A stretch of DNA of 64,000 bases from a virus (IMGVR_UViG_3300024252_000005), one strand, 5' to 3'. Counted from the stretch's first letter, positions 49,259 to 63,916 are shown. Notes: generated by a model not told the origin, from the sequence alone. Made by a program: numbers and translations.

Positions 49259-50085
49259 TGCCGAGATCACATAATAAAAAAAGAAATGTTGGTATAATTT
49301 ATGAGCAAATTATCAACTTTGTTTGTGGAAGATTATTAGAAGAAGATAAAAAGTCTGCTGAAAGCGCTGTTAGTATTATTAAGTCTCATTTTAGGCCTAG
49401 CTCACAGCTATATAAAGAGTATAAATTATTTAAAGCTTTAGCAACTACTCATAATGTAAACGACCAATTAGCTTCTTCTATTATAAACGAAGCAAAAAAA
49501 GCATGTAATAAAATGTTTAACAGCGAAAGCTTAGAAAAAGAGAAATCTTCACTTATAAGAGATCTTAACTATGCTTTCGGAAAAGGTGTTATTTTTGAGG
49601 AGAAAGTTAGCAACTATAGAACTTATGCAACAATTCAGACTTTGTTAAATGAGTGGAGAAATAATAGTAACAACTTTGATAAAACAACAGAATATGAAAT
49701 TAAACTTCATAGTAGTTTAACAAAAAAAGAAGTTTTAAAAGAAAGAAAGATGCCAATTAGTGTTGATCCTTTAACATATAATATAATGAAAGATAAGTTT
49801 AATAAAAAGTATATGACTCAATTAAATGAATCTCAGAAAGATATTGTTGGCTCTTTTATTAACGACGAAGAGCAAGTAATTGTAGAGAAATATACTAAAT
49901 TAAAAGAATCTTGCATGAAAGTTTTAAATAATTACATTAATCGTTGCAATAATTCTATTCTAGTTGAAAAGAACAATAAGATTCGCTCAAAGTTAGTTTC
50001 TTTAGATGAAAATGATTTATCAAAAGAAAATCTTCAAAAGTTTTTAATTGTGTCAAAATTAAAAGAAGAGATATTAGGAGAATAA
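49258..50085 (+). CDS. Conserved hypothetical head-module protein
   Basis: H.KKRN.GIIYE..I N-terminus; TAATG-coupled between the portal and the protease. Confidence 0.6.
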   Translation: MPRSHNKKRNVGIIYEQIINFVCGRLLEEDKKSAESAVSIIKSHFRPSSQLYKEYKLFKALATTHNVNDQLASSIINEAKKACNKMFNSESLEKEKSSLIRDLNYAFGKGVIFEEKVSNYRTYATIQTLLNEWRNNSNNFDKTTEYEIKLHSSLTKKEVLKERKMPISVDPLTYNIMKDKFNKKYMTQLNESQKDIVGSFINDEEQVIVEKYTKLKESCMKVLNNYINRCNNSILVEKNNKIRSKLVSLDENDLSKENLQKFLIVSKLKEEILGE

Positions 50086-50086
50086 A

Positions 50087-50689
50087 ATGGGTGCACCTAG
50101 GTTAATTACAGAATGGGTAAACTTCCAGTATGACCCCCAAATAATAAAAGAGCAAAAGACAGCAGGAAGTCCTTTAATAATGAAGGGCATTTTGCAAAAA
50201 GCTGAAACTCTTAATCAGAATGGCAGAGTTTACCCTAAGACTATTTTGGAAAGAGAGATAAGAAATTATCAAAAGTTTATTCAAGAGAATAGAGCATTAG
50301 GTGAGTTAGATCACCCAGATTCTTCTGTTGTTGAGCTTAAAAATGCTTCTCACAATATAAAAGAAGCGTACATGGAAGGTAATATAGTTTATGGGACTGT
50401 TGAGATCTTAAATACGCCTAGTGGAAAGATTTTGCAGTCATTAGTTGAGAGTGGAGTAACATTAGGTATATCGTCTCGAGGTGTAGGTAGTACAAAGACA
50501 GAGGGAAATATGCAAATTGTGCAAGACGATTTTCAACTTATTTGTTGGGATTTTGTAAGTGAGCCTTCGACTCCTGGAGCATTTATGATGAGAGAAGGAA
50601 AAGAGGTATCATCTCAGTTTATTAATAAAGTTTTTAACAAAACAGACAGAATAGATAGAATATTTAACGATATATTGGAGTGGAAATAA
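50087..50689 (+). CDS. gp21: Prohead core protease (T4 gp21-like)
   Basis: NQNGRVYP; GELDHP; LGISSRGVGS; DFVSEPSTPGA. Confidence 0.93.
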   Translation: MGAPRLITEWVNFQYDPQIIKEQKTAGSPLIMKGILQKAETLNQNGRVYPKTILEREIRNYQKFIQENRALGELDHPDSSVVELKNASHNIKEAYMEGNIVYGTVEILNTPSGKILQSLVESGVTLGISSRGVGSTKTEGNMQIVQDDFQLICWDFVSEPSTPGAFMMREGKEVSSQFINKVFNKTDRIDRIFNDILEWK

Positions 50690-51077: not shown

Positions 51078-51506
51078 ATGGCAAAAGTAAGCAGAAGTAT
51101 GCTTAAGGGCATTGTAAAAGAGTGCCTTGTTGAGCTTTTAGCAGAAGGTTTATCTGGTGGCGACACAAGAGAGTTAAACGAAAGCATGGGAAATAGTATT
51201 CCTACTTTTAAAAACTCTGTTAAGCGTACACAAAAGCAGGCAGCTAAAAAAGTTGTTAATGAAAGCTTTGAAGAAAACACAAGAAAAGTTATATCAAATG
51301 TAACAAGTGATCCAGTGATGGCATCTTTATTAGAAGACACAGCAAATACAACGTTGCAAGAGCAAAATAGTGCAGATTCATCTAATAGGTTTGCGGCGAA
51401 GGCAACTGACTCTTATAGTCGCGCTGTTGATAGTAGTGATCCTGTTGAGTTATTTGGTGAAGCTTCAAATAATTGGGCAGCATTAGCTTTTTCAGGTAAT
51501 AAATAA
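51078..51506 (+). CDS. Hypothetical core/head protein
   Basis: N-terminal amphipathic LKGIVKECLVELLAE motif. Confidence 0.55.
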   Translation: MAKVSRSMLKGIVKECLVELLAEGLSGGDTRELNESMGNSIPTFKNSVKRTQKQAAKKVVNESFEENTRKVISNVTSDPVMASLLEDTANTTLQEQNSADSSNRFAAKATDSYSRAVDSSDPVELFGEASNNWAALAFSGNK

Positions 51507-51585
51507 AGAAAATAATAAAAATAATGTTTTTAGACATAGTTAGAAATATATTGATTAAACAAGAAACAATTTATGGAGTTTACTT

Positions 51586-51876
51586 ATGTCTAGAAATAGA
51601 GAAAGAATGGTTGAAGTTACACCTTCTACAATTAGAAGACTAGTTAGAGAAGAGCGCGCTCGCTTAAATGAGACCTTAGAGCTCAAAGCTCGTCATCCAT
51701 CAGATGTTGCCAAAAAGACACGTGAAGTTGATGCAACTGCTTATGCAGATACATTAGCAAAGTGTATGGACTATTATCAGATGGCAAAGCTTAAAGAGTC
51801 AAAAATGGTAGAAGAATTAAAAAGACTTCAGGAAGTTAAAAGAGAGCTCAAGAAGAGAATACTTAAAGGTATCTAA
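51586..51876 (+). CDS. Small basic head/core protein
   Basis: VTPSTIRRLVREE...RLNE motif shared with 63671-63916; GGAG RBS. Confidence 0.55.
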   Translation: MSRNRERMVEVTPSTIRRLVREERARLNETLELKARHPSDVAKKTREVDATAYADTLAKCMDYYQMAKLKESKMVEELKRLQEVKRELKKRILKGI

Positions 51877-51910
51877 TCTTTTTTAATTATAAACAGAAAA
51901 GGAGCATCAC

Positions 51911-52504
51911 ATGGCAGGTTATAATGGCTTAGGACAAGGCGTTTTTACAAATGCAACAACTTTTAATGATCAAATTGGAAGACAAAGAGACAAATACAGC
52001 GCTAAAAACCGCGCAAGAAACGTAGACGAAAATTTAGGTGTTTCTAGAGATACATCAGCTTTATTTCCAAGTTTTGTTGCTCAAGATATATATGACAGAA
52101 GCGTAGAAGAATTTCAAGGTTTAGACTTTTTAGCTGCAGGAGGTAACCCGGACTTTGGGCCTACTGGTGTCAAGCTAGATAATGATGGAACACCTATGTT
52201 TACAAATGTTAATTTACAAATCGATCAGCCTAATAAAAAGGGTCCTAACTTAATAGCACCTGATATTAATAACTTGACTGCACCTACAGCTGAACAAGAA
52301 ACATCTAGCTTTACTAATAGAGGTTTTGGCTGGAAAGATGGTAGAAATGAGTCTGGTACAGAAACTGCTAGAATTGGTGAATATTTTAGCAAGCACTATA
52401 ACGCTACGGGTATTGACCAAAGTATTACTAGACCTAAGTTCGGTGAAGCAAAAGATCCGGGTACACCAGCAAATCCTGATGCAATAAACTACGATCAGCC
52501 TTAA
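51911..52504 (+). CDS. Hypothetical protein (head module)
   Basis: AAGGAG RBS; Gly/Pro/Asn-rich and probably disordered. Confidence 0.55.
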   Translation: MAGYNGLGQGVFTNATTFNDQIGRQRDKYSAKNRARNVDENLGVSRDTSALFPSFVAQDIYDRSVEEFQGLDFLAAGGNPDFGPTGVKLDNDGTPMFTNVNLQIDQPNKKGPNLIAPDINNLTAPTAEQETSSFTNRGFGWKDGRNESGTETARIGEYFSKHYNATGIDQSITRPKFGEAKDPGTPANPDAINYDQP

Positions 52505-52521
52505 TATAGAGTTTAGCTAAC

Positions 52522-53436
52522 ATGCCAAATGCACCTTATTATAATGGTAATACAAATCCTAATGCAAAGGGCGGTGCATTTGGTTATGATGGAAGAACTG
52601 GGTTAGGAATTGGTTCTCTAACAAAAGGTCCTGCTAGTGGTTTAGGTAGCAATTGGAATATGGGTGATGCTCTTAGCTCACCTAAAGGCCAGTGGGACGA
52701 TACAGAAGAAGACTATGCTGAAAAACAATTTAGGATTACTTCTAAGACAACAGTTAGAGAATTAGCAGCATTTGCTGGTTTATTAGATGAAGAAGACTAC
52801 GATGAGCTTGAAGCAGACATTGAAGGAAAAGCACATTCATCTTTTCATAGAGGTGCTGTAGATAGCTTATCTCATAGAGGAACATCTATAGGTTATATGG
52901 GTGGTATAGGATCTGATATGTCTGCTGTTATCGGTTTATCAGCAGGGAAAAGACTTGATGGTAAGGTTATGTCAGAAAAAAGAATTAAACAGTATATAAA
53001 ACAAGTTCTTTTAAATGAATTTCAAATGAGTGGAAGAATTGCTAGTATGTCTTCACCCAAAGCAAAGAATACTGGGGGAAAAAGAAGAAGTGATCCGCTT
53101 AATATAGATAATACTTCTGCTTCAACAAATACATCTGATGCAGCACCTTTAGGTCACTTGCCAACTTCAAGATCTGCTGTTAACCATAGTGGTTATACAA
53201 ATAAAGCTTTGACACCTGATAATCTAGAGCCTTACGTTAAACAAGGCAAAGCAACAACAGATGGTGGTGAAACAACAGGTGTTGAAAATAGAGATTTACA
53301 ATACAGTATATCAGCTGCAATGTTTAATATTGGTGTCAAATCAACTGGAGAAGATTTAGAAGATTCTCTAGAAGACGAGCATATCGATCAGAGAAATGTT
53401 GATTTGCATAATACAAATTATTATGTTAATTTCTAA
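52522..53436 (+). CDS. Hypothetical protein (head module)
   Basis: Gly-rich N-terminus; internal RIKQYIKQVLLNE motif. Confidence 0.55.
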   Translation: MPNAPYYNGNTNPNAKGGAFGYDGRTGLGIGSLTKGPASGLGSNWNMGDALSSPKGQWDDTEEDYAEKQFRITSKTTVRELAAFAGLLDEEDYDELEADIEGKAHSSFHRGAVDSLSHRGTSIGYMGGIGSDMSAVIGLSAGKRLDGKVMSEKRIKQYIKQVLLNEFQMSGRIASMSSPKAKNTGGKRRSDPLNIDNTSASTNTSDAAPLGHLPTSRSAVNHSGYTNKALTPDNLEPYVKQGKATTDGGETTGVENRDLQYSISAAMFNIGVKSTGEDLEDSLEDEHIDQRNVDLHNTNYYVNF

Positions 53437-53491
53437 AAAGCGCTTGTTATTAATATATAGTTAATATAAGAAATTAATTTGTGAGAGTTAT

Positions 53492-54967
53492 ATGAGTAAT
53501 AATTTATACATGGAAGCCATTGAAGCTGCAGAACAACTTAAGTTAGCTGCTGAAGATAAGGCTAAACAACAGATCATAGAATCTATGACACCTCATATCA
53601 AAGCACTTGTTGAGAAGAAGCTTATGTCTGAGTCTGATCAAGATGAGATAACTGATGAGATAACTGACGAAGACACAGATGAGTGTGGAATGATGGCTGG
53701 TCAAGAAGAGATTGTTGATGAAGTAACTTTAGATGAAGATTCAAGAAGGATCTTATCTAAGTTTATTAATAGCAATGCTCAAAGATCAGCTTTACAAGAA
53801 AAAATAGAAGAGCTTCGTGAAGGCTTACGAACTCTAAGAAAAGCTATGTTATTGTCAGAAAATGTTAAAAATTCTTCATCTACAAAGAGAAGAATTAATC
53901 TTCTTTACAAAAATATTATAAAAGAAGCAGTAAATATTAAAAGAAGCAGTATAATTAAAAATGATAAAAGCTTATTAAAAGAATATTTTAAATTAATTAA
54001 GGAGTTAGAAAATATGTCAAGACGACGCTCAAAAAGAAGTAACTATGTAAATGAGTCTCTCGAAGATCTTCTAGAAATGAACCTCTTCGAAGCTGATGAA
54101 GACGATGAAGCTGATGAATCAGAAGAAGAAGTTGAAGCTGATGAAGAAGAAGTAGAGTTTGAAATGCCAGAAGACTTAGACGAAGCACCTGCAGGAGACG
54201 TTTCAGCAGAGACAACTGTAGAAGAGCTAGCAATGATGGCAGGACTCATGGGCGGCTCAGATGAAGTTGCTGAACTCGACCTTGAAGTAGATGAAGACCT
54301 CGAGCCTGAGATGGAAGAAGAAGGCATCTTCGAGATGGATGAAATGGATCAAGAAGTTGAGGGAGATATGTATGAGTCTAGACGTCGTGACAGAGTATTA
54401 GAAATTGATGAAAACATGCTTAGAAGAGAGATTGGTAGAATGAAGGCAATTCGCGAGGGTGAAGCTAAAGATATGGCATCACACTTTGGCGGAGGTTCAT
54501 TAGAAGGTGAAGCATTTGTTGATGGCGTTGAGCTCAACAAGTTGCACGAGATGAGAACTAAAGCTGCAAAGGTTGTGCGCATGAATCGCCAGCTATCAAG
54601 CAAGCTTTCTCAGTACAAAAAGGCACTTCGTGGAATGAAGGGTCAACTTTCGGAGATGAATCTTTTCAATGCGAAGCTTCTTTATGCTAACAAGCTCATG
54701 CAGAACAGAGACCTTTCAATGAAGCAGCAGCGACACATTGTTGAGTCACTTGATGAAGCAAAGACCTTAGGTGAGGCAAAGATTCTTTTCGAGAGCCTTT
54801 CTAAGTCACTTGTAAGCGGTCGTAGAACCCGTAAGGGTGGAAACCTTTCAGAAGGTGCTTTGAGAAGACCAGCTGGTTCTTCTTCAAGACCAGTTCGCAG
54901 TGCACAGCCACTTACCGAATCTGTAGCACTTGATCGTTGGGCAACACTCGCTGGGATCAAGAAGTAA
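53492..54967 (+). CDS. gp22: Prohead core scaffolding protein (gp22-like)
   Basis: Acidic and coiled-coil; L.EMNLFNAKLLYANKL...IVESLD.A....EAK..FE.L C-terminal motif; many L/I-X-E sites; directly upstream of the MCP. Confidence 0.8.
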   Translation: MSNNLYMEAIEAAEQLKLAAEDKAKQQIIESMTPHIKALVEKKLMSESDQDEITDEITDEDTDECGMMAGQEEIVDEVTLDEDSRRILSKFINSNAQRSALQEKIEELREGLRTLRKAMLLSENVKNSSSTKRRINLLYKNIIKEAVNIKRSSIIKNDKSLLKEYFKLIKELENMSRRRSKRSNYVNESLEDLLEMNLFEADEDDEADESEEEVEADEEEVEFEMPEDLDEAPAGDVSAETTVEELAMMAGLMGGSDEVAELDLEVDEDLEPEMEEEGIFEMDEMDQEVEGDMYESRRRDRVLEIDENMLRREIGRMKAIREGEAKDMASHFGGGSLEGEAFVDGVELNKLHEMRTKAAKVVRMNRQLSSKLSQYKKALRGMKGQLSEMNLFNAKLLYANKLMQNRDLSMKQQRHIVESLDEAKTLGEAKILFESLSKSLVSGRRTRKGGNLSEGALRRPAGSSSRPVRSAQPLTESVALDRWATLAGIKK

Positions 54968-55014
54968 GAATTTTTAACACGTTTTAATTAAATTATAAAG
55001 GAATAAAAAAACAT

Positions 55015-56994
55015 ATGAGTTTTACACTTAAAACATTAACAGAAGGTATTAGAGACCGCCACGTGGGCCAGCAGAACAAGCGCCTCGTTGAGAAATGGTC
55101 TCGCACAGGTCTCCTTAGAGGCATGGAAGATGTAAACCGTGAGAACATGGCAACAATGCTTGAGAACCAGGCAGCTCAGGTTCTTCGCGAGAGCAACCTA
55201 ATGAGCAGCGGTGATGTTGGTGGTTTCACAAACATTGCTTTCCCAATCGTTCGTCGTGTTTTTGGTGGTCTTATTGCTAACGAGCTCGTCTCAATCCAGC
55301 CAATGAGCCTCCCAAGCGGTCTCCTTTTCTACCTCGATTATACATACGGTAGTGATGGCAATGGCTATAACTCTGGCGAGTCTGTTTATGGTGGACCAGC
55401 TGGAAAAGCAATTCAAGGCGGCGCTGATGCTACTGGTGGTCAATATGACCTAGTAGGTACCAGTTTTTCTCGAGTACGAATTAAGGCAAAAGACACAAGT
55501 GGTGCAGCTGAGCAAACATTGCCAGTTGATGCGTCAGCACGTCCTAACATTGCCGCGCTAGACGCAAATGAGTTGCATCTTCTTACTACTGAGCTTGGTG
55601 CATCAAACGCAGAAACAGATTCAGCTCTTTCTAGCACAAAATCTTTAAAAGTTACAAGCAGCCACGACTTATCATTAATACAGCATGATCCACAAATTAT
55701 TGACAGAATTAATGCTGGTTCTAATTATATTGCTTTACTTGTTCACCCTAACCTAACTGATACTGATGCACTTGATACTTTGGCGACTAAGCTCGACCCA
55801 GAGTATTTTAGAGAGATTTCTCTGGTAGGCACTTCAGGTACTGATGATAAAGATGTCGGCGATCAATTAGTAGTTCCACCTGATGCAGTACAATCATCAG
55901 CCCACGTTGCGGGTGGCGGTTCAGGTACAAAAGAAGTTGCTTTTAATGTAAAACGTCTGAATCAAATTGGTTCTTACACAAATAACGTCTTTACACCTGA
56001 TCCTTTGGTTGATGTTACCAGCGCAAGTGCAAGAATTTTATTTATTGTAGAAAAAGCAGTAGCTGCAGCAACAGCCCCTGTTAATCTATCAAATATAAAA
56101 ATGTCTTACGTTGAAGTTGACACAGTTGGATTTGCAGGTGGTGAAGCTACTGGAAGTCCTTCATTTGAGAGTAACATGAAACCAGCTGGAGACGAAATTT
56201 CTCCAGTAATCCCAGAGATTGACATCAAGATTGAGTCGATTCCTGTAACTGCACAAACACGTAAGTTACGTGCACGTTGGAGTCCTGAGCTTGCGCAAGA
56301 CCTTAATGCATACCACTCAATGGATGCTGAGGTTGAGCTTACTCAGATTCTTTCTGAGCAAATTGCTCTTGAGATTGACCGTGAGATTCTTGGTGATCTT
56401 CTTAACGGCGCAAAAGGCGCAAACTTCTTCTGGAGTCGTTCACCTGGCAAGTTCGTTAACAAGCGTACTGGTGCAGAGATTGCTCGTACATCATCTCTTA
56501 ACCCTGGGCCAGCTTTCACTGGTACAGTTCGTGAGTGGTATGAGACTCTTACTGAGACAGTTATCGATGTTGCTAACGAGATCCACAGAAAGACACTTCG
56601 TGGTTCTGCGAACTTCATCGTAGTTTCTCCTGACGTTGCAACTATTCTTGAGGCATCTGTACTTTACCGCCCAAGCTATAGCCTTGACGGTGACGGACAG
56701 GTTGGTGCACCATTCACAATGGGTGCAGAGAAGGTTGGTACTCTTTCTAATCGCTTTACCGTTTACAAAGACCCATACTTCCCACGCAACAAGATCCTTG
56801 TTGGTTATAAGGGCGGCTCTTACCTCGAGACTGGCTTCGTATATGCTCCATATGTACCACTCATCGTTACTCCTACAATCTTCCAGCCAGAGGATTTCAC
56901 CCCACGTAAGGGTGTTATGACTCGTTATGGTAAGAAGATGGTACGTGCTGACTTCTATGGTACTGTGACTTGTCTCGACATGAACATCATCTAA
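55015..56994 (+). CDS. gp23: Major capsid protein (T4 gp23-like) with a large insertion
   Basis: LVEKW..TGLL; A.MLENQA; FPIVRRVF..LIANELVSIQPMSLPSGLLFY; TRKLRARWSPELAQDL.AYH..DAE.EL..ILSEQI..EIDREI; APYVPL; RKGVMTRY. Confidence 0.97.
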   Translation: MSFTLKTLTEGIRDRHVGQQNKRLVEKWSRTGLLRGMEDVNRENMATMLENQAAQVLRESNLMSSGDVGGFTNIAFPIVRRVFGGLIANELVSIQPMSLPSGLLFYLDYTYGSDGNGYNSGESVYGGPAGKAIQGGADATGGQYDLVGTSFSRVRIKAKDTSGAAEQTLPVDASARPNIAALDANELHLLTTELGASNAETDSALSSTKSLKVTSSHDLSLIQHDPQIIDRINAGSNYIALLVHPNLTDTDALDTLATKLDPEYFREISLVGTSGTDDKDVGDQLVVPPDAVQSSAHVAGGGSGTKEVAFNVKRLNQIGSYTNNVFTPDPLVDVTSASARILFIVEKAVAAATAPVNLSNIKMSYVEVDTVGFAGGEATGSPSFESNMKPAGDEISPVIPEIDIKIESIPVTAQTRKLRARWSPELAQDLNAYHSMDAEVELTQILSEQIALEIDREILGDLLNGAKGANFFWSRSPGKFVNKRTGAEIARTSSLNPGPAFTGTVREWYETLTETVIDVANEIHRKTLRGSANFIVVSPDVATILEASVLYRPSYSLDGDGQVGAPFTMGAEKVGTLSNRFTVYKDPYFPRNKILVGYKGGSYLETGFVYAPYVPLIVTPTIFQPEDFTPRKGVMTRYGKKMVRADFYGTVTCLDMNII

Positions 56995-57046
56995 TTTAAT
57001 TAGACGTTCTTAACAGTCGATATCCTTTCTGGATAAGCTTTCAATT

Positions 57047-57070
57047 AAACCGTCGCAAGGCGGTTTTTTT
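57047..57070 (+). terminator. Rho-independent terminator after the major capsid gene
   Basis: AAACCGTC-GCAA-GGCGGTTT stem with a GNRA tetraloop, running into a T tract. Confidence 0.9.
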
Positions 57071-57135
57071 GTATAATAAAAAAAACATTTGAAGCATATA
57101 ATTATTATGTATACACCTCGTAAAGGCATAATAAC

Positions 57136-58518
57136 ATGAAATGTATTATATGTGGATTTGAAGGAACTGGTAAAAAGCTTAGTAATCATTTGCAAAAAGA
57201 GCATAAGATTAGTAGTAAAGACTATACATTAAAGTTTCTATATAAAAACTATAACGGTTGCTTGAATTGCGGCAAAGAAACAAGATACGTCGCATTTACT
57301 TTTAAAAAGTATTGCAAGGATTGTGCTAAACTAGGGATGAAAGAAGGTGGATGTAAAGGTGGTAAAGCTGAAGCATGGAACAAAGGAAAGACAAAGGAAA
57401 CTGACAATAGAATAAAAGGCTTATTAGGTAAAGACAATCCTTTTTGGGGAAAAAGTCATTCTGAAGAAGTTAAGAATAGAATAAGTATGACGAAAAGACT
57501 GGGCGGTATTGATATACTAGAAAGAGTCATGAAAAGAAATGATGCTTTTGAGATATTAACACCTTTAGACAAATATTTCAGTAGACAGCGTCAATATCTA
57601 GACTTTAAATGTAAAAAATGCGACTTTGTATGCAAAAAGACTTTGCAAGCGTTTGAAAGAGGTTCATTATGTCCAAAATGTTATCCTATATCTAAAAGCA
57701 AAGCAGAGCTAGAAGTATATGTTTATGTTAAGAGCTTAGGATTTAACGACGCTGTAAGCGGTGATAGAAACATAATAAAACCTAAGGAAATAGATATAAG
57801 TTTAAAACAGAGTAATTTTGGTATTGAATTTAATGGTCTATATTGGCATAGCGAAGTTATTGATAGGACAACAAAGAATGATCTATTAAACAAGACATTG
57901 CTATGTAAAGAAGTAAACATGAAGTTGATGCACATATTTTCAGACGAATGGGAATTCAAAAGGGATATATGTAAAAGTATGATAAAGAATAGATTAGGCT
58001 TGTCAAATAAAATATGGGCAAGAAAATGTAAAGTTGTTAATCTAGATAAAAAGCAATTTGATAGTTTTATGAATGATAATCATATCAGCGGAAGTGTTAA
58101 TAGTAGTGTTAGACTTGGTTTGATTTATAATGAAGAAATCGTAAGTGTTATAGGATTTAGAAAGCCAAGACAAAAAAAGTGGACTGGTTATTGGGAAATA
58201 AGTAGATTTGCAAACAAGTTAGATTATTCTGTAGTAGGAGGTTTAAGTAAGTTAATTAAAAACTTTTTAAAGAATGAGAGTAACAAGAAAATAATGACTT
58301 ATGCTGATAGAAGATTTGGAGAAGGTTTAGGATATGAAAAGGTTGGGTTTAAGAGTTTTGGTGATAGTGGAATAGATTACTGGTATTCAGATGGAATAAA
58401 TAGATATGATCGATTTACTGTTAAGTCTGACGATAAAATGTCAGAAAAAGAGAAAGCAGCAGAAATGGGTTTATATAAAGTTTGGGGATGCGGAAGCAAT
58501 ATATGGACTATTAATTAA
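57136..58518 (+). CDS. Hef-like free-standing homing endonuclease (Zn fingers, NUMOD3-like repeats, Vsr-like PD-(D/E)XK domain, C-terminal GNAT/Mom-like region)
   Basis: CxxC/HxxxxH fingers; AWNKG and NPFWGKSHSEE; EIDI....GIEFNGLYWHS; HIFSDEW; IWARKC; EISRF...VVGG.SKL...TYADRRFG.G..Y...GF. Confidence 0.75.
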   Translation: MKCIICGFEGTGKKLSNHLQKEHKISSKDYTLKFLYKNYNGCLNCGKETRYVAFTFKKYCKDCAKLGMKEGGCKGGKAEAWNKGKTKETDNRIKGLLGKDNPFWGKSHSEEVKNRISMTKRLGGIDILERVMKRNDAFEILTPLDKYFSRQRQYLDFKCKKCDFVCKKTLQAFERGSLCPKCYPISKSKAELEVYVYVKSLGFNDAVSGDRNIIKPKEIDISLKQSNFGIEFNGLYWHSEVIDRTTKNDLLNKTLLCKEVNMKLMHIFSDEWEFKRDICKSMIKNRLGLSNKIWARKCKVVNLDKKQFDSFMNDNHISGSVNSSVRLGLIYNEEIVSVIGFRKPRQKKWTGYWEISRFANKLDYSVVGGLSKLIKNFLKNESNKKIMTYADRRFGEGLGYEKVGFKSFGDSGIDYWYSDGINRYDRFTVKSDDKMSEKEKAAEMGLYKVWGCGSNIWTIN

Positions 58519-58587
58519 TTAATAATAAAGTAGAGATATATGTAGTTTAGCTATATATTTATATTATAAAACCGCAAAGGAATTAAC

Positions 58588-58980
58588 ATGTATAATAGGA
58601 AAAGTACAAGTGACGTCATCTCTATCTGGAGAGATTATTTAAATGGCAGCAGCGAAAACAAAAGAAGAATAAATGAGGCACCTGAAGACTATTATAGTCC
58701 TGGAGCTGAAGATGTAGACTTTTTCGACGATGAATATGCTCCTAATGAATTTGATCCAGACAATACATCAATAGCAAAAGACCGATCAGAATGTTTAGAA
58801 GCAATAATATCAGATTTAGCTTCTTGTAATCCAAAATGGGAGCAAGACAGAGTTGATGCATTGATTGCTATTCTTGAAGATGAAAACAAAGTATCAGATG
58901 AAGAATTATGCATGATAGCTTATAGTGATCCTGTAGATGATGACTATAATCCTGGCGGGTATGAGTCTGACGACGTATAA
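58588..58980 (+). CDS. Small acidic protein with a predicted prohead-protease-cleavable leader
   Basis: ISIWRDYLN...RRINE/A leader followed by a D/E-rich body; AAGGA RBS. Confidence 0.6.
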   Translation: MYNRKSTSDVISIWRDYLNGSSENKRRINEAPEDYYSPGAEDVDFFDDEYAPNEFDPDNTSIAKDRSECLEAIISDLASCNPKWEQDRVDALIAILEDENKVSDEELCMIAYSDPVDDDYNPGGYESDDV

Positions 58981-58991
58981 AGAGTTTTATA

Positions 58992-59249
58992 ATGAAAAGT
59001 GACTTAAAACTAATAATGGAAAATTGGAGAAGATTTCTTAAAGAAGATTCTGAAATCTACAGCGACGAAGGTCATGATGATTTCATCGATCCTAGGCATT
59101 ATGATCCTGAGTATGGTGAACCTGAGGGTGTAACTCCAGTAGACCCAGATCTTACTAGTGCACAAGGTGATGAAGATGTCTCGATTGAATATGATAGAGA
59201 TGACAGCATTGATCTTGATGATAGCTTTGAAGATGAAGATTATCGATAA
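58992..59249 (+). CDS. Small very acidic protein with a predicted capsid-targeting leader
   Basis: MKSDLKLIMENWRRFLKE/ followed by a D/E-rich body. Confidence 0.6.
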   Translation: MKSDLKLIMENWRRFLKEDSEIYSDEGHDDFIDPRHYDPEYGEPEGVTPVDPDLTSAQGDEDVSIEYDRDDSIDLDDSFEDEDYR

Positions 59250-59629
59250 TGAAAAAGCCTTTATTTTTCGAAAATAGTAAAGTTCCTAAGATATTAAGTA
59301 AGTTATCGCCTATTGAGATATGGGCAATTACATTAGGGCCTCTTGTTTTTTGTGCTGGCGAGATGTCTGAAGAAACAAAAAGACATGAGACGATACATTT
59401 TATGCAATATAAAGAAACTTTCTTTATTGGTTTTATGCTTATATATGTTTTTGATTTTTTATGGGCAGCAATAGCAAAAAAGAAAGGTTTCACGCGTGAG
59501 TCTTATTTATCAATTAGATTTGAGCAAGAAGCTTGGGAATGTGGCAAGCAAGAAGTTTATCTAGAAAAGAGGGAAAAGTTTGCTTGGAAAAAATATCCGC
59601 TAGGGGGTGTAGAAAATGAAAAACCTTAA
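59249..59629 (+). CDS. HExxH-motif protein (possible zinc metallopeptidase)
   Basis: RHETIH..Q..E; hydrophobic segment; RFEQEA; TAATG coupling. Confidence 0.55.
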   Translation: MKKPLFFENSKVPKILSKLSPIEIWAITLGPLVFCAGEMSEETKRHETIHFMQYKETFFIGFMLIYVFDFLWAAIAKKKGFTRESYLSIRFEQEAWECGKQEVYLEKREKFAWKKYPLGGVENEKP

Positions 59630-59912
59630 AGAATTTATAAAAGAATCAATAGAAGATATGTTAACTTTTAAAGGAGGCATATCATCAGATACTAGCGGTC
59701 ATGTTGATGTAATTGAAAAAGATAGAGTAAAAGCATTAGAGATACTTGCATGCAAACAATTGTTTCCAAATTTAAAAACTAACTCTTTATCATACAAGTA
59801 TCATAAAGTAAGCTCGAAATATCCTGAAGGTGTTATAGTTTCATGTAGTAATTCAAATAAAAAGTACTTAGTAGCTCATCATGGACATATTGTAGACCTT
59901 AATAGGAGATGA
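59616..59912 (+). CDS. Small protein with a T4 internal-protein-like N-terminal tag
   Basis: The N-terminus MKNLKEFIKE resembles the T4 capsid-targeting sequence MKTYQEFIAE. Confidence 0.55.
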   Translation: MKNLKEFIKESIEDMLTFKGGISSDTSGHVDVIEKDRVKALEILACKQLFPNLKTNSLSYKYHKVSSKYPEGVIVSCSNSNKKYLVAHHGHIVDLNRR

Positions 59913-59913
59913 A

Positions 59914-60444
59914 ATGCCAAGTTTTTTAAGTCAATCTAATCAAAACAAAAAAAAGTCCAACAAAGTAAATACTGCACCTAGCAGATCTGAAAGATTAGCT
60001 GCTAAAGAGTTAGACATTGATTTGGCTGATAATTGGAATGCTTACTCAAAAGAAGCAAGATTGCATATATACGTTTCAGATATGAAAGAGATGGTCAGAT
60101 TTTATAATAAAATTCTTGAATTTCCTGTCGTTAGATATTGGAGATCAGCAGGTGGTGATGGAACAATGTTGGATATTGGAGGAAATATTATAGAGCTTTT
60201 TTCAAAAAACAAGAAAAACTATGGAAACAAAAACTTTTACGGAAATGTTTCAATGTCAGTTAGAGTTAGAGATGTTCATAAATTATATGAAAAGTTTTCT
60301 AAGAAAAATATTACAATTGGCAAACTTGTTGATAATAGCTGGGGTGATTCTTCTTTTGAAGTACTAGATCCCGAAGGAAATAGAATTGCATTTTTTAGTC
60401 CTAGCACATCAAAAAGCAAATACTATAAAGTAAAGAGAAGTTAA
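59914..60444 (+). CDS. VOC (glyoxalase/bleomycin-resistance) family protein
   Basis: LHIYVSD...MVRFY.KILEF; IELF; V.DV..LYE; WG..SF.V.DPEGNRI.F. Confidence 0.85.
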   Translation: MPSFLSQSNQNKKKSNKVNTAPSRSERLAAKELDIDLADNWNAYSKEARLHIYVSDMKEMVRFYNKILEFPVVRYWRSAGGDGTMLDIGGNIIELFSKNKKNYGNKNFYGNVSMSVRVRDVHKLYEKFSKKNITIGKLVDNSWGDSSFEVLDPEGNRIAFFSPSTSKSKYYKVKRS

Positions 60445-60445
60445 A

Positions 60446-61561
60446 ATGAACAAGCTTAATGACTATATTAAGCTTTGTCTTGAGACAAGAGCTTATATGT
60501 ATCCCCCTAAAAGAATAGATGCTAAGCTTCAAAATAAACTGTCACCGAAATTAGCAAATGACAAAACTAATCTTTTGCCTGAAGAAGTTGTAAAAGATAT
60601 AGGCGATAAATGGGGTGAAGACTTTGTAATAAGTTTTGTAAGAAGCTATAAAGGAAAAGTTCCTTCTATTGAGATAAATCCTCACGCAAGATTTGCTACA
60701 CCTCATGGAATATATTCGTATTTGCTAACAAGAGAAAACTTGACTGATTTATTTCTTAAGGGTAATTTAGAAGGTGTAGATTTTGCTATGGATAGACCTT
60801 ATTTTCATATTATGAAGATAACAACACAGAACAAAGCATATATTATGCCAGATGGTACTTCTAATATCTATAGTAATAATGATAAACGTGAGTTTATGCA
60901 TGATGTTCAAGAAATGGTAAGGACATCATTAATGTCTCAAGTTGCTAGCAGAAGAGCACCTGATAGGAAGATTAATGAAAAAAACTATACATCAACTTTG
61001 TATAGCGCAGGATATTCTTCTTCTAGAGTAGCAAGAGCAATACATAAAGCATATGATGCTGTTTGCTTAAAAGCGCCTGAAGAAAGCAAAGTTGATTTAA
61101 ACAAGTTTACAGAGAATGCTGCTATATTCTTGGATTTTCTTATAGACAGAAAAGCGAAAAGTACTGTGGAAAAGAAAAGAAGCTATCATAAAGATTATAA
61201 ATCATCTAAAGCAATATTAGATAAAAATACTGGGTATTTATTTTTAAAACTATATAGAATAGCAGATATATTATCTTATATGACACCTAGCCCTAAGCAA
61301 GGATCGGGCAGACATAATGATCCATCTAGACTTTCTTTATTACTTAGAAGTGTCAATATAGAAGCAATAATTGACAAAGGATTTGGATTGCTACACCATC
61401 TTCAGCCAACTCAAGCTGTTGCAATAAATTACGGCGGTGGTGACAAGAAATCCCAATTTAGTTCAATTGAAAACTTAGGTACATATAAAAATATATTCAA
61501 ATATTGTACAGCTGAAGAACTTGAAACTTTATTTGTAGAACACGCAGACTATTTACATTAA
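60446..61561 (+). CDS. Hypothetical protein with a predicted cleavable leader (MNKLNDYIKLCLE)
   Basis: 371-aa ORF; contains FATPHGIYSY. Confidence 0.55.
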   Translation: MNKLNDYIKLCLETRAYMYPPKRIDAKLQNKLSPKLANDKTNLLPEEVVKDIGDKWGEDFVISFVRSYKGKVPSIEINPHARFATPHGIYSYLLTRENLTDLFLKGNLEGVDFAMDRPYFHIMKITTQNKAYIMPDGTSNIYSNNDKREFMHDVQEMVRTSLMSQVASRRAPDRKINEKNYTSTLYSAGYSSSRVARAIHKAYDAVCLKAPEESKVDLNKFTENAAIFLDFLIDRKAKSTVEKKRSYHKDYKSSKAILDKNTGYLFLKLYRIADILSYMTPSPKQGSGRHNDPSRLSLLLRSVNIEAIIDKGFGLLHHLQPTQAVAINYGGGDKKSQFSSIENLGTYKNIFKYCTAEELETLFVEHADYLH

Positions 61562-61566
61562 ACATA

Positions 61567-61968
61567 ATGTGGTATATCTACGTTGTTGTATGTTTTGACA
61601 ATTCATTGTATTGTGGTATAACTACAAATCTAGAAAGAAGATTAAAACAGCACAATGGTGAGATCAAAGGAGGCGCTAAGTATACTAGAGGTAGAAGGCC
61701 TTGTCAATTTGTATATACTAAAAAGGCAGCCAATAGATCAGCTGCCTCTAAAGAAGAATGTAAATTCAAAAAGTTAAGCAGGAAAAATAAACTAATATTC
61801 CTACTTAAAAATAATTATGAGCCCATATCAGGTGAAGGTGCGTCTTCAGAAGATTCTTCGCCGGCGGGTACAGGCATATCATCGCAATCTTCACCTTCTT
61901 CAAGTAATTCTGGTTCGCAAGCAGGATCTGTCTCTGGTTGTGGTTCATCACATCCTTCTCCAGCTTGA
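61567..61968 (+). CDS. GIY-YIG nuclease (short, UPF0213/SLX1-like)
   Basis: WYIYVV.C.DNSLYCGITTNLERRLKQHNG...GAKYTRGRRP...A.K.E. The last ~50 codons overlap the antisense lipoprotein gene. Confidence 0.85.
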   Translation: MWYIYVVVCFDNSLYCGITTNLERRLKQHNGEIKGGAKYTRGRRPCQFVYTKKAANRSAASKEECKFKKLSRKNKLIFLLKNNYEPISGEGASSEDSSPAGTGISSQSSPSSSNSGSQAGSVSGCGSSHPSPA

Positions 61969-62294
61969 AACTCAGGTGAACAATCTTCAATTTGATCGCC
62001 GGCAACAACTTCACCTGCTGGAAGAACTAAGTCTCCTGCAACTTCTGGCTCATCGCCAGCAGATACCAAATCTCCTGCTACAATTGGCTCTTCACCTGCA
62101 TCAGAAGTTCCTGAAGCAGATTCTTCGCCAGCAGCCTCACCTGCTGATTCTCCTGCCATGGTCTCTCCAGCTTGTACTCCAGAGTCGCTAGCTTGGGGAG
62201 GTTCGTCTACATCTTCATCAGACTCGCAACCAGAACTGAACAAAGACGTGAATACAATTAAAATTGCTAACAAAAAAGATCTAATCTTTAACAT
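61815..62294 (-). CDS. Acidic low-complexity lipoprotein
   Basis: MLKIR + hydrophobic stretch + FSSG/C lipobox; repeated AGE/AGD; AGGAG RBS. Confidence 0.75.
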   Translation of the reverse strand: MLKIRSFLLAILIVFTSLFSSGCESDEDVDEPPQASDSGVQAGETMAGESAGEAAGEESASGTSDAGEEPIVAGDLVSAGDEPEVAGDLVLPAGEVVAGDQIEDCSPEFQAGEGCDEPQPETDPACEPELLEEGEDCDDMPVPAGEESSEDAPSPDMGS

Positions 62295-62437
62295 ATAATT
62301 ACTCCTAGTAATGATTATTAATAAAAAAATTTTATTAATAAAAAAATATTATTAATAAAAAAATATTATAATAAAAAAATATTATAATAAAAAAATATTG
62401 AAATTATAATTAATTTATGTAAGGAGTAATTATATGT
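62291..62437. repeat. Perfect 16-bp inverted repeats (62291-62306 and 62422-62437) flanking a 115-bp AT-rich spacer
   Basis: ACATATAATTACTCCT and AGGAGTAATTATATGT are exact reverse complements; each contains the RBS and ATG of one of the two divergent genes. Confidence 0.9.
62314..62396. repeat. Five tandem copies of a 16-17-nt unit ATTAT(T)AATAAAAAAAT
   Basis: Units at 62314, 62331 and 62348 (17 nt) and at 62365 and 62381 (16 nt); no spacers between them. Confidence 0.95.
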
Positions 62438-62790
62438 CAATAGAAGAAAAATTAAAAGAATTGTCAAAATATGCGGAGATGCATATAACACAACTAATAG
62501 CTTCAGCAATACTTTCGTTTATTTGCGGATTTATTTTGCAAAAGTCTATAACAGATCCGTGTATAAGGTCAGTAGTATGTGAGGAAATAATAGACGATAG
62601 AGACAAACTTTCAGATCAATTAGATCAAGAAAGACAGAATTGTTTAGATGAGAAAAAAGATATGGGTAAATCTTTAAGAGATAAATTGAATGAAGAATGT
62701 ACTAAAAGTATAGAAGAAGCAACAAAAGATTGTGAATTTTCTGAACGTCATCACTGTAGAATATGTAAAGCAAGAGGTGTATGTAAATGA
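62434..62790 (+). CDS. Membrane-anchored Cys-rich coiled-coil protein (possible i-spanin-like)
   Basis: One TM helix (LIASAILSFICGFIL) followed by a coiled coil with several Cys. Confidence 0.45.
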   Translation: MSIEEKLKELSKYAEMHITQLIASAILSFICGFILQKSITDPCIRSVVCEEIIDDRDKLSDQLDQERQNCLDEKKDMGKSLRDKLNEECTKSIEEATKDCEFSERHHCRICKARGVCK

Positions 62791-63311
62791 AAAGAGCTAT
62801 TTTATTTTTGTTTTGTATTATTTTTAATATTTCTATTGCAAATGGGCAAAAAGTAAATATACCTTCAATGACAGAGACGATATTAACAACAACAGAAGTT
62901 GAAGATGAAGGCGATTTTGTTTCTCAGCATGAAGATATAAAGTTGACGCTTGGGACCTTAGAATTTCCTGCGAAGTTTCTATATAAAGAAGAGTTAGCTC
63001 CTCATCAAGGTTATTTAATTAAGTTTAAAGATTTCATTAGAGTAGAAAAGCTTTTTAAAAATATGAATAAAGGTTGTGATATTCTATACGACGAGTTATT
63101 GAAAGAATGCAAAAGAGGCTTAACTCAATGTCAAGATGATTGCAATGAAAGAGTTAAAAAGCTGCTGGAAGAAAAAGATAGCTTAAAGATTAGTTTAGAA
63201 TTGCAAATCAAGAAAACTGAAAGTGAAGTGACCAATAAATATATATGGACTTCAGCAGGCTTAGTAGTAGGAGCCGGCGTAGGAATTTTAATAAACGAAT
63301 TGTCAAAATAG
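62787..63311 (+). CDS. Secreted coiled-coil protein with a C-terminal TM helix (possible spanin-like)
   Basis: Signal-peptide-like MKRAILFLFCIIFNISIA; C-terminal IWTSAGLVVGAGVGILI; ATGA overlap. Confidence 0.45.
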   Translation: MKRAILFLFCIIFNISIANGQKVNIPSMTETILTTTEVEDEGDFVSQHEDIKLTLGTLEFPAKFLYKEELAPHQGYLIKFKDFIRVEKLFKNMNKGCDILYDELLKECKRGLTQCQDDCNERVKKLLEEKDSLKISLELQIKKTESEVTNKYIWTSAGLVVGAGVGILINELSK

Positions 63312-63365
63312 TTCGTATGCTTAGACTTAAAAATAATAATTAGATTTAGTAGGAAAGGATTTACA

Positions 63366-63632
63366 ATGGAACCAAATCTTGTGTTATCAATAGGAACAAT
63401 CATGTCAGTCATAGGACTATTTTATTCTTGGCATAAAGACTCAAAGGCCAATGCTCGAGAAGTTGCGCAGCTTACTGCAAGAGTAGATTCTTTAGAAGCT
63501 AGAGCAAAGCAAACAGATGAAGTATTACAAGAGTTATTAAGAGCTACACAAGATATTAAGGTTGCATTAGCTAGAATAGACACAAAGTTGACTAGCTTAG
63601 AGCAGGAATTTAATAGAAGTTTGCAAAATTAA
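63366..63632 (+). CDS. Holin-like / XhlA-like small membrane protein
   Basis: One N-terminal TM helix followed by a heptad coiled coil; AGGAAAGGA RBS. Confidence 0.45.
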   Translation: MEPNLVLSIGTIMSVIGLFYSWHKDSKANAREVAQLTARVDSLEARAKQTDEVLQELLRATQDIKVALARIDTKLTSLEQEFNRSLQN

Positions 63633-63670
63633 GTAATATATAATATTATAGTTATACAAGGAGACTAAAT

Positions 63671-63916
63671 ATGAAGTTGACATCAAAAATGCTAAGAAGA
63701 ATGATTAATGAAGAAATGAATAGAGAGCGATCTATTAAACGTCGACGACGCAGACTTGCTGAAAGCGCTGATCGACCTGTACGTGTAACGCCTCAGTATA
63801 TTAATCGTCTTATTAGAGAAGAGTATGCAGCATTTCAAAAGAAGCAAAGATTAGCTGAATCTCGCCGTAGAAGAGTTGCAAATGCAAGTCGTAGAAGAGC
63901 TTTGTCTAGATATTAA
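63671..63916 (+). CDS. Arg-rich small basic protein (putative DNA-condensing core protein)
   Basis: About 22 of 81 residues are Arg; two copies of a [T]xxx(L/I)xR(M/L)IxEE...RLAE/S motif; AAGGAG RBS. Confidence 0.6.
   Translation: MKLTSKMLRRMINEEMNRERSIKRRRRRLAESADRPVRVTPQYINRLIREEYAAFQKKQRLAESRRRRVANASRRRALSRY

What the first reader, a model, noticed from the sequence alone, without database searches (positions are those of the whole stretch)
51078..63916. Dispersed family of proteins sharing an amphipathic leader ending in (L/I)-X-E: a candidate capsid-targeting and cargo-injection system
Seen: MKNLKEFIKE (59616), MKSDLKLIMENWRRFLKE (58992), ISIWRDYLN..RRINE (58588), MNKLNDYIKLCLE (60446), MLKGIVKECLVELLAE (51078), TPSTIRRLVREE..RLNE (51586), KMLRRMINEE..RLAE and TPQYINRLIREE..RLAE (63671), RIKQYIKQVLLNE (internal, 52522). 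The same site type appears in the MCP (QVLRE59/S), the protease (RLITE) and the scaffold. Established: T4 gp21 cleaves after (L/I)-X-E, and the T4 internal proteins carry the leader MKTYQEFIAE, which loads them into the head for injection (IPI blocks GmrSD restriction). Inference: unrelated cargo domains here have been given a common tag, forming a modular repertoire of packaged effectors outside the core head operon.
Basis: partly seen in the sequence, partly recalled or inferred. Interest (0 to 1): 0.72.

Follow-up and report, generated by a model that had tools for sequence, protein, structure and literature searches.

The report
Shared head-loading tags on phage proteins
An uncultured marine T4-like phage, like hundreds of its relatives, puts a few interchangeable short N-terminal helices ending in Ile/Leu-x-Glu on many unrelated proteins. 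These are most likely clip-off address tags that load proteins into the virus head, as phage T4 does on a much smaller scale, but no cleavage or packaging has been measured.

Summary
All nine leader strings are in the sequence. Bare (L/I)-x-E is barely enriched at N-termini, but profiles show two robust tag classes. Class A is K-L-T-x3-L-R-x-I-I-x-E-E-like. Class B is L-L-x-E-W-R-x-F-L-x-E-like. Across this genome and 80 related loci, 124 matches are N-terminal and 5 internal, on 51 unrelated body families. Nearly all are followed by (I/L/V)-x-E.

Six of the eight window proteins belong to class A or B, or to a body family that carries them. The T4-like leader at 59616 and the internal motif at 52522 are conserved but weaker.

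Homologues of the 60446 protein carry class A, B or T4-like leaders at the same junction, so the classes look interchangeable. That body has a weak ADP-ribosyltransferase-like fold, which recalls T4 Alt.

Two tagged genes (51078, 51586) and 52522 with its internal motif lie inside the head module and are conserved. They look like prohead core parts, not effectors. The variable cargo lies downstream of the capsid gene.

The best reading is a T4-type capsid-targeting propeptide cut by the gp21-like protease (about 0.6). Cleavage and packaging are untested.

This scan already noted the same phenomenon in this genome (e1-5410820) and in many other genomes. I found no paper describing it outside T-even and phiKZ-like phages.

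The parts
50087..50689 (+). gp21-type prohead protease. It has a conserved L-x-E site near its own N-terminus (residues 6-9, DNA 50099-50113).
   Evidence: phrog_207, E 8.5e-52. The N-terminal L-L-T-E-W segment is conserved in 40 orthologues. T4 gp21 has L-I-E at residue 9 (PMC9026906).
51078..51506 (+). Conserved head-module protein (my family 5) with a class A-like leader (residues 1-23, DNA 51078-51146) ending L-A-E|G. Its C-terminal W-A-x-L-A-F motif (DNA 51474-51491) is shared with the scaffold.
   Evidence: 43 orthologues. K10, E15, E19, E23 and G24 are invariant. Class A profile score 12.3 bits. C-terminal motif.
51586..51876 (+). Small basic coiled-coil head-module protein (family 13). 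The class A leader core is at residues 11-26, and the putative junction L-N-E|T is at residue 29 (DNA 51586-51672).
   Evidence: 29 orthologues with the leader conserved. Class A score 15.6 bits.
52522..53436 (+). Head-module protein (family 20) with an internal leader-like helix at residues 151-166 (DNA 52972-53019), ending L-N-E|F.
   Evidence: The motif is at the same position in all 9 orthologues (weaker in L002) and is the best-conserved mid-protein segment. Profile scores are low: 3.8 bits.
53492..54967 (+). Scaffolding protein, the presumed receptor core, with several (I/L)-x-E sites and a C-terminal R-W-x-x-L-A-G motif (DNA 54935-54955).
   Evidence: Its position before the MCP, its acidic coiled-coil composition and 57 orthologues. 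The C-terminal motif is present in 57 of 57.
55015..56994 (+). gp23-type major capsid protein. The predicted propeptide ends at V-L-R-E59|S (DNA 55177-55191).
   Evidence: phrog_138, E 3.6e-74. The site is conserved at about 90% in 70 orthologues. Alignment to T4 gp23 starts 19 residues downstream. The cleavage position itself is inferred.
58588..58980 (+). Class B leader protein. The W-R-x-Y-L core is at residues 5-21, the first (I/L)-x-E is at residue 30 (DNA 58588-58677), and the body is very acidic (31% D+E).
   Evidence: Class B profile score 23.4 bits, but it was in the training set. Body charge -26. It is the first gene of a tightly packed block, 58588-61561.
58992..59249 (+). Class B leader protein. 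The leader is residues 1-18 (DNA 58992-59045), ending L-K-E|D, and the body is 40% D+E.
   Evidence: Class B score 27.0 bits. Class B sits on 14 body families. There are only 5 close homologues in 5.8 billion proteins. A Shine-Dalgarno-like A-A-A-G-A-G precedes the long-form start.
59616..59912 (+). 98-residue protein with a T4-CTS-like 10-residue N-terminus (DNA 59616-59645), then a flexible linker and a small alpha/beta domain.
   Evidence: The N-terminal 21 residues are almost invariant in 11 homologues. It is the only protein of 1288 with M-K-x4-F-I-x-E (0.015 expected). In the model, helix 4-17 and the linker have pLDDT below 50, and the domain spans residues 34-98.
60446..61561 (+). 371-residue cargo (family 30). 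The leader is residues 1-13 (DNA 60446-60484), ending C-L-E|T-R. The body has a weak ADP-ribosyltransferase-like fold with a helical insert.
   Evidence: Alignment A1 shows homologous bodies with class A-like, class B or T4-like leaders, all ending x-E followed by T, A or S. Model pLDDT 86. VIA Z 5.6 to MbcT, 5.3 to ParT and 4.0-4.3 to PARPs. Atlas hits are DUF3990 and ART-PolyVal clusters.
63671..63916 (+). 81-residue arginine-rich protein (family 33) with two tandem class A leaders, at residues 1-14 (DNA 63671-63712) and 39-51 (DNA 63785-63823).
   Evidence: Class A score 19.4 bits. Orthologues in L002, L003 and L064 keep both copies. After a cut at residue 31, body pI is 11.8.

Best explanation
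The strings belong to a clade-wide set of portable N-terminal tags. Each is a 10-30-residue amphipathic helix, basic on one face, ending in (I/L/V)-x-Glu.

Proposed mechanism (inferred):
1. Late in infection, the tag docks the protein onto the scaffolding core of the assembling prohead.
2. The gp21-type protease (50087-50689) cuts after the Glu. It also cuts the capsid protein after V-L-R-E59, the scaffold, and probably itself.
3. The mature body stays in the head with the DNA and can leave with it at the next infection.

Two kinds of tagged protein should be kept apart.
- Conserved head-module proteins (51078, 51586, and 52522 with an internal copy) are probably building parts of the core, like T4 gp67 and gp68.
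- Fast-turnover genes downstream of the capsid gene are candidate internal proteins or effectors. These are 58588 and 58992 (very acidic), 59616, 60446 (ART-like fold) and 63671 (arginine-rich).

Shown here: the tags are real, N-terminal, modular, kept at the protein level, interchangeable on one body family, and followed by the protease-type site.

Inferred: docking, cleavage, packaging and injection.
For: - The phage is T4-like in its head genes: protease phrog_207 and MCP phrog_138, portal PF07230 and terminase.
- Leader profile hits are 124 N-terminal versus 5 internal, on 51 body families, in this genome plus 80 related loci.
- An (I/L/V)-x-E follows the core motif in 37 of 38 class A families and 14 of 14 class B families. 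About 20% would be expected by chance.
- In alignment A1, one body family carries class A-like, class B and T4-like leaders. The Glu and a small residue stay at the same junction.
- Between paralogues, 30-50% of identical leader residues use different codons, so selection acts on the peptide.
- Tagged genes sit in the head module (72 genes, 10 families) and in a hypervariable zone after the MCP (38 genes, 31 families). This matches the T4 pattern of core proteins plus polymorphic internal-protein loci (PMC9026906).
- Whole relatives carry from 1 up to 31 class A matches and up to 5 class B matches per genome, often in arrays.
- The 59616 leader matches T4 residues K2, F7, I8 and E10. Residue 7 matters for targeting and residues 8 and 10 for processing in T4.
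- In both models, the leader is a separate low-confidence helix ahead of the folded body.
- T4-family proteases all cut after Glu, and T4 CTS propeptides are 10-20 residues long (PMC5694885).
- No tag sits on a recognisable replication gene.
Against: - There are no virion proteomics, no cultured close relative and no cleavage data. tblastn of 51078 and 51586 against 50,697 cultured-phage records found nothing.
- Classes A and B have no significant similarity to the T4 CTS, gp67, the gp23 propeptide or the scaffold.
- The residue after the Glu is often Glu, Asp, Arg or Val. Whether this suits a gp21-type protease was not checked here.
- In several class A tags two or more Glu positions are possible, so the cut site is ambiguous.
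- One class B protein has a HAD phosphatase domain and sits among metabolic genes on the other strand.
- No shared late-promoter word was found across the clade.
- Conservation in the 59616 family runs well past residue 10.
Confidence: 0.6

Rival explanations
1. The leaders are docking helices for head assembly that are not removed, or are removed without any role in targeting. The tagged proteins would then be structural parts of the core or inner capsid, not delivered cargo.
For: 51078 and 51586 are as conserved as the scaffold, lie inside the head module, and have conserved regions beyond the leader. 51078 also shares a C-terminal motif with the scaffold. The residue after the Glu is often charged.
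Against: 31 different body families in the variable zone after the MCP argue against fixed structural roles for most tagged proteins. The Glu at the junction is kept even when the leader class is swapped.
Confidence: 0.15
2. The tags serve a shared function unrelated to the capsid. They might dock onto a phage or host hub protein, associate with membrane, hand over to a chaperone, or regulate turnover of a set of late accessory proteins.
For: No direct link to the head exists for the genes outside the head module. One class B protein carries an RNA-repair-type HAD domain among metabolic genes. No common late promoter was found.
Against: The same leader classes occur on proteins encoded between protease and scaffold in dozens of relatives. 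The tags end in the site type of the phage's own head protease. They are too charged to be secretion signals.
Confidence: 0.15
3. The two weakest examples are chance products of a Lys/Glu/Ile/Leu-rich proteome and are not members of the tag system. These are the N-terminus of 59616 and the internal motif of 52522.
For: Bare (L/I)-x-E is only 1.6-1.7-fold enriched. A profile of the T4-like class found no new member beyond its seeds. 59616 scores 5.2 bits and 52522 scores 3.8 bits against class A.
Against: Both motifs are conserved in every homologue found. The T4 key-residue pattern is expected 0.015 times in 1288 proteins. The related T4-like leader of 60446 is exchanged for class A and class B leaders in homologues.
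Confidence: 0.1

Closest known systems
Phage T4 capsid targeting sequence (CTS) of internal proteins IPI, IPII and IPIII and of Alt, removed by prohead protease gp21 (Mullaney and Black 1996; reviewed in PMC9026906)
   Same: Both are short N-terminal propeptides on unrelated mature proteins, ending in (L/I)-x-E, in a phage with a gp21-family protease. The genes are dispersed and polymorphic between relatives. The cargo includes basic small proteins and possibly an ADP-ribosyltransferase-like enzyme, as with Alt.
   Different: There are at least two longer leader classes (14-19 residues) with consensus sequences unrelated to the T4 CTS. They sit on 51 body families in the sampled clade, with up to 31 matches in one genome, against about four proteins in T4. 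Several bodies are strongly acidic. Leader classes are swapped on one body family. Nothing has been shown experimentally.
T4 prohead core proteins gp67 and gp68
   Same: Like these, 51078, 51586 and 52522 are small proteins encoded next to the protease and scaffold genes and carry (L/I)-x-E sites. They are conserved along with the head module.
   Different: No detectable sequence similarity: there are no significant PHROG hits, and T4 gp67 scores 2.3 bits against the class A profile.
Propeptides of ejection and inner-body proteins of phiKZ-like giant phages (phiKZ, 201phi2-1, SPN3US; PMC5694885)
   Same: Many head proteins are processed after Glu by a T4-related protease, and diverged paralogues keep identical N-termini.
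   Different: Those propeptides are mostly over 100 residues long and the site is (A/S/G)-x-E. They are not a short portable tag on dozens of unrelated bodies.

Membership tests
T4-type CTS / internal-protein system | N-terminal propeptide of about 10-20 residues | tested here: met
   Predicted leader lengths are mostly 14-19 residues. In the window they are 10, 13, 18, 23, 29 and 30 residues.
T4-type CTS / internal-protein system | The propeptide ends in the (L/I)-x-E site of the head protease | tested here: met
   An (I/L/V)-x-E follows the core motif in 37 of 38 class A families and 14 of 14 class B families. This is a sequence-level result only.
T4-type CTS / internal-protein system | The phage encodes a gp21-family prohead protease, and its MCP has a cleavable propeptide | tested here: met
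   phrog_207, E 8.5e-52. The V-L-R-E site in the MCP is conserved. The cut itself is inferred.
T4-type CTS / internal-protein system | The same tag on unrelated mature proteins | tested here: met
   51 body families, defined by BLASTP on residues 31 onwards. Leader classes are exchanged on one family.
T4-type CTS / internal-protein system | Sequence similarity to the T4 CTS | tested here: inconclusive
   Only 59616 matches the T4 residues K2, F7, I8 and E10. Classes A and B do not resemble the T4 CTS, and profile scores against T4 proteins are insignificant.
T4-type CTS / internal-protein system | Late co-expression with head genes | tested here: inconclusive
   In this genome, A-T-A-T-(A/G)-T-A-G lies 37-41 nt upstream of the scaffold gene, two structural genes and three leader genes, and 50 nt upstream of 58588. 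The word is common in this AT-rich DNA, and no word is shared across the clade.
T4-type CTS / internal-protein system | Cleavage of the tag by the protease, presence of the mature protein in virions, and injection | not testable with these tools
   The phage is uncultured and no proteomic data were available.
ADP-ribosyltransferase fold superfamily (body of the 60446 protein) | ART-type split beta-sheet core | tested here: inconclusive
   VIA Z 5.6 (MbcT), 5.3 (ParT), 5.2 (NatT) and 4.0-4.3 (PARP catalytic domains) over residues 39-357. Atlas hits are DUF3990 and ART-PolyVal clusters, with TM by target 0.35-0.59. All are below the level at which a fold is safe. Foldseek found nothing at E <= 0.001.
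ADP-ribosyltransferase fold superfamily (body of the 60446 protein) | Catalytic H-Y-E or R-S-E motif, or a sequence match to a known ART family | tested here: inconclusive
   A conserved P-H-G-x-Y-x-Y segment is present (G88 nearly invariant; Y90 and Y92 invariant), but no catalytic Glu could be assigned. There is no Pfam or PDB sequence match.
T4 gp67/gp68 prohead core proteins (51078, 51586) | Sequence homology | tested here: not met
   No significant PHROG or Pfam hit. tblastn against cultured phages found nothing. Only the gene position and site type agree.

The most novel reading that the evidence does not exclude
The leader classes are not redundant. Classes A and B, the T4-like class and a separate C-terminal scaffold-like tag (W-x-x-L-A-G/F) would be distinct addresses that bind different core components. 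They would set the copy number or location of dozens of swappable cargo proteins. This would give an abundant, uncultured marine phage clade a combinatorial protein-delivery system far larger than T4's, including an ART-like enzyme, DNA-mimic-like acidic proteins and protamine-like peptides.
Probability: 0.2. Interest if true: 0.75.

Novelty: new variant of a known kind. Interest (0 to 1): 0.5.

Why it matters
If the tags work as proposed, common marine T4-like phages carry a large and fast-changing kit of proteins into the host with their DNA. That kit would be a main arena of defence and counter-defence in the ocean.

The short tags would give a simple sequence rule for finding such proteins in metagenomes. 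They would also give new, orthogonal loading signals for engineered phage capsids.

The principle is already established for T4, and T4 researchers have predicted that it is widespread. The advance is therefore one of scale, diversity and rules, not a new mechanism.

Tried and rejected
- Bare (L/I)-x-E enrichment at N-termini is too weak to mean anything.
- By eye, class B resembles the N-terminal helix of the MCP propeptide (T4 gp23 residues 9-21) and the protease N-terminus, and class A resembles T4 gp67 or the scaffold helix. None of these scores above background, and the scaffold is not hit. I dropped them as evidence.
- A profile of the T4-like class found no member beyond its seeds.
- tblastn of 51078 and 51586 against cultured phages gave no match. 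By eye, Flavobacterium phage immuto has class-B-like and class-A-like N-termini in its head module, but the scores are insignificant.
- Complex prediction of scaffold plus the 59616 family gave no answer. Score 0.00; controls were not run.
- The feature search in the protein Atlas gave nothing for 60446. The fold search for 59616 gave only generic helical matches.
- A k-mer search for a shared promoter upstream of leader genes across the clade found nothing convincing.
- Literature searches found no description of such tags outside T-even and phiKZ-like phages.


Full report
**What the window is**

The window is part of a single 153-kb phage record. GC content is 26-44%, and nearly all genes are on one strand. 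The head genes are T4-like:
- large terminase at 44486;
- a gp20-type portal at 46112-49258, interrupted by an intein with an HNH nuclease;
- a gp21-type protease at 50087-50689;
- a gp23-type capsid protein at 55015-56994.

The nearest cultured capsid proteins are only 42-47% identical over just over half of the query. They come from Flavobacterium phage immuto, Microcystis phage Mel-JY01 and Rhodothermus phage RM378. IMG/VR holds at least 597 related contigs, and I fetched 80 loci around their capsid genes.

**The observation**

The short motif itself proves little. (L/I)-x-E is 1.6-1.7-fold more frequent in the first 30 residues than elsewhere, and a quarter of random internal 25-residue windows contain one.

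The longer leaders are a different matter. Gene starts across the whole genome showed a row of eight genes outside the window with near-identical N-termini. That row is the array reported earlier in this scan as e1-5410820. They also showed several more dispersed copies.

I grouped 1288 predicted proteins from this genome and the 80 loci by similarity of residues 31 onwards. Two leader classes stand out:
- Class A, roughly K-(I/L)-T-x3-L-(R/K)-x-(I/L)-(I/V)-x-E-E.
- Class B, roughly L-L-x-E-W-(R/K)-x-(F/Y)-L-x-E.

Profiles built from one sequence per body family give 124 hits of 9 bits or more within the first 30 residues and only 5 elsewhere. Those 5 include second tandem copies in small proteins (e.g. 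in L064 and L009); the other two were not examined. The hits lie on 51 unrelated body families.

An (I/L/V)-x-E follows the core motif in 37 of 38 class A families and in all 14 class B families. The residue two before the Glu is mostly Ile in class A and mostly Leu in class B. Between paralogues, a third to a half of identical leader residues use different codons, so the peptide is under selection, not the DNA.

**The window's members**

| ORF | Class or family | Notes |
|---|---|---|
| 51078 | Class A-like, family 5 | 43 orthologues; Glu and Gly invariant at the L-A-E\|G junction |
| 51586 | Class A, family 13 | 29 orthologues |
| 63671 | Class A, twice in tandem | Arginine-rich 81-residue protein |
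| 58588 | Class B | Body 31% Asp+Glu |
| 58992 | Class B | Body 40% Asp+Glu |
| 60446 | T4-like leader, family 30 | See the next paragraph |
| 59616 | T4-like leader | 10-residue N-terminus invariant in 11 homologues; the only one of 1288 proteins with the T4 pattern M-K-x4-F-I-x-E (0.015 expected) |
| 52522 | Internal motif | Same position in all nine orthologues (weaker in L002); scores low |

The leader of 60446 looks like neither class A nor class B, but its homologues settle the matter. In alignment A1 the same conserved body is preceded by one of four things: a T4-like (Y/F)-I-x-L-x-L-E leader, a class B leader, a class A-like leader (three tandem paralogues in L011), or a very short leader. 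In each case the leader ends in x-E followed by Thr, Ala or Ser at the same column. This is the best evidence that the classes are functionally equivalent versions of one signal.

In T4, residues 4 and 7 of the CTS matter for targeting and residues 8 and 10 for processing (PMC9026906). That is why the K2, F7, I8 and E10 match in 59616 is relevant.

A profile of this loose T4-like class found no new members, so I do not treat it as an established class.

**Where the tagged genes lie**

Upstream of the capsid gene, the 72 tagged genes in the related loci belong to only 10 families, mainly families 5 and 13. These are conserved head-module genes between protease and scaffold.

Downstream of the capsid gene, 38 tagged genes belong to 31 families. 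In this window that zone is the tight block 58588-61561, which follows a homing-endonuclease gene, plus 63671.

Whole related genomes carry very different numbers, often in arrays:

| Record | Size | Class A matches | Class B matches |
|---|---|---|---|
| G003 | 273 kb | 31 | 0 |
| G002 | 257 kb | 16 | 0 |
| G001 (complete) | 239.5 kb | 6 | 5 |

In this genome no tag sits on a recognisable replication or nucleotide-metabolism gene. The one exception is a class B protein with an RNA-repair-type HAD domain.

**What the bodies are**

The 60446 body models well (pLDDT 86). Its leader is a separate, low-confidence helix. Foldseek finds nothing significant in the PDB.

Full structural alignment ranks MbcT first and places ParT, NatT and many PARP catalytic domains among the matches. 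Z is 4.0-5.6 over residues 39-357, interleaved with Bcl-2-family helical-bundle matches at Z 4.1-5.3 over residues 143-293. The ESM Atlas search returns DUF3990 and ART-PolyVal clusters.

These scores are too low to be safe, and there is no sequence match. An ADP-ribosyltransferase-like core with a helical insert is therefore a lead, not a finding. If it holds, the protein parallels T4 Alt, a CTS-bearing packaged ADP-ribosyltransferase.

The 59616 protein models as an N-terminal helix, a disordered linker and a small alpha/beta domain with no informative structural match.

**Mechanism**

The best-supported reading is the T4 one. The tag binds the scaffolding core of the prohead. The gp21-type protease cuts after the Glu. 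The mature protein remains in the head.

Published support: T4-family proteases cut after Glu. T4 CTS propeptides are 10-20 residues long. T4 workers have proposed that the CTS is a general route for T4-like phages to load varied proteins (PMC9026906; PMC5694885).

Consistent with this, the capsid protein here has a conserved V-L-R-E site at residue 59, and the protease has a conserved L-x-E near its N-terminus, as T4 gp21 does.

Docking, cleavage, packaging and injection are all inferred. The cut site is ambiguous in tags with several Glu residues. The residue after the Glu is often charged.

**Comparison and novelty**

This works like the T4 CTS and internal-protein system and meets its sequence-level criteria. 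The main leader classes are not similar to the T4 CTS, are longer, come in at least two interchangeable forms, and sit on far more proteins.

I found no paper describing this outside T-even and phiKZ-like phages. This scan has flagged the same phenomenon many times, including in this genome.

I rate it a new variant of a known kind, of moderate interest.

Noticed in passing
window 54935-54955 and 51474-51491; L067 3933-4976; L031 11970-14255: A C-terminal motif, (R/N)-W-x-x-L-A-(G/F), ends the scaffold (57 of 57), the family-5 protein (40 of 43) and two other protein families encoded after the MCP in relatives. 102 of 104 occurrences are within 12 residues of the C-terminus. It may be a second, scaffold-type targeting signal. 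One carrier also has a class A leader.
   Followed up: partly
window 46112-49258: The portal gene is 1048 codons, against about 665-670 in relatives. It contains an intein splicing domain with an HNH endonuclease, ahead of the T4 portal domain.
   Followed up: partly
window 57136-58518: A 460-residue homing/HNH endonuclease gene (phrog_3339 and phrog_559) sits between the capsid gene and the variable leader-gene block. It is present in only 14 of the related loci.
   Followed up: no
G000:C1:18103-18780 (L084), outside the window: A class B leader sits on a 225-residue protein with a HAD_SAK_1 domain (PF10307, E 1.3e-9), a domain from RNA-repair proteins. The gene is on the opposite strand among nucleotide-metabolism genes.
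   Followed up: partly
window 59249-59629 and 59914-60444: Two genes in the same tight block have no leader. One is a small protein with an H-E-x-x-H motif (phrog_15610, 'protease', E 7.9e-20), which is adjacent to class B genes in at least L002, L003 and L064. The other is a glyoxalase/VOC-domain protein (PF00903, E 1.6e-12).
   Followed up: no
window 49258-50085, residues about 129-135: The conserved 275-residue protein between portal and protease has an internal L-L-N-E-W-R segment, conserved across orthologues, that resembles the class B core. Scores are below significance.
   Followed up: no
proteins P0036-P0039 (distant homologues of the 60446 protein): These roughly 505-residue homologues end in a leader-like amphipathic helix at the C-terminus. 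This recalls the two-ended processing of T4 Alt.
   Followed up: no
window 53453, 58538; genome positions given: The word A-T-A-T-(A/G)-T-A-G lies 37-41 nt upstream of the start codons of the scaffold gene, two large structural genes and three leader genes. It is a candidate late promoter, but the word is common in this AT-rich genome.
   Followed up: partly
window 61567-61968 and 61815-62294 (minus strand): A GIY-YIG domain protein (PF01541, E 1.7e-16) has a Ser/Gly-rich tail that overlaps, antisense, an ORF for an acidic lipoprotein-like protein. Which of the two is real over the overlap was not resolved.
   Followed up: no
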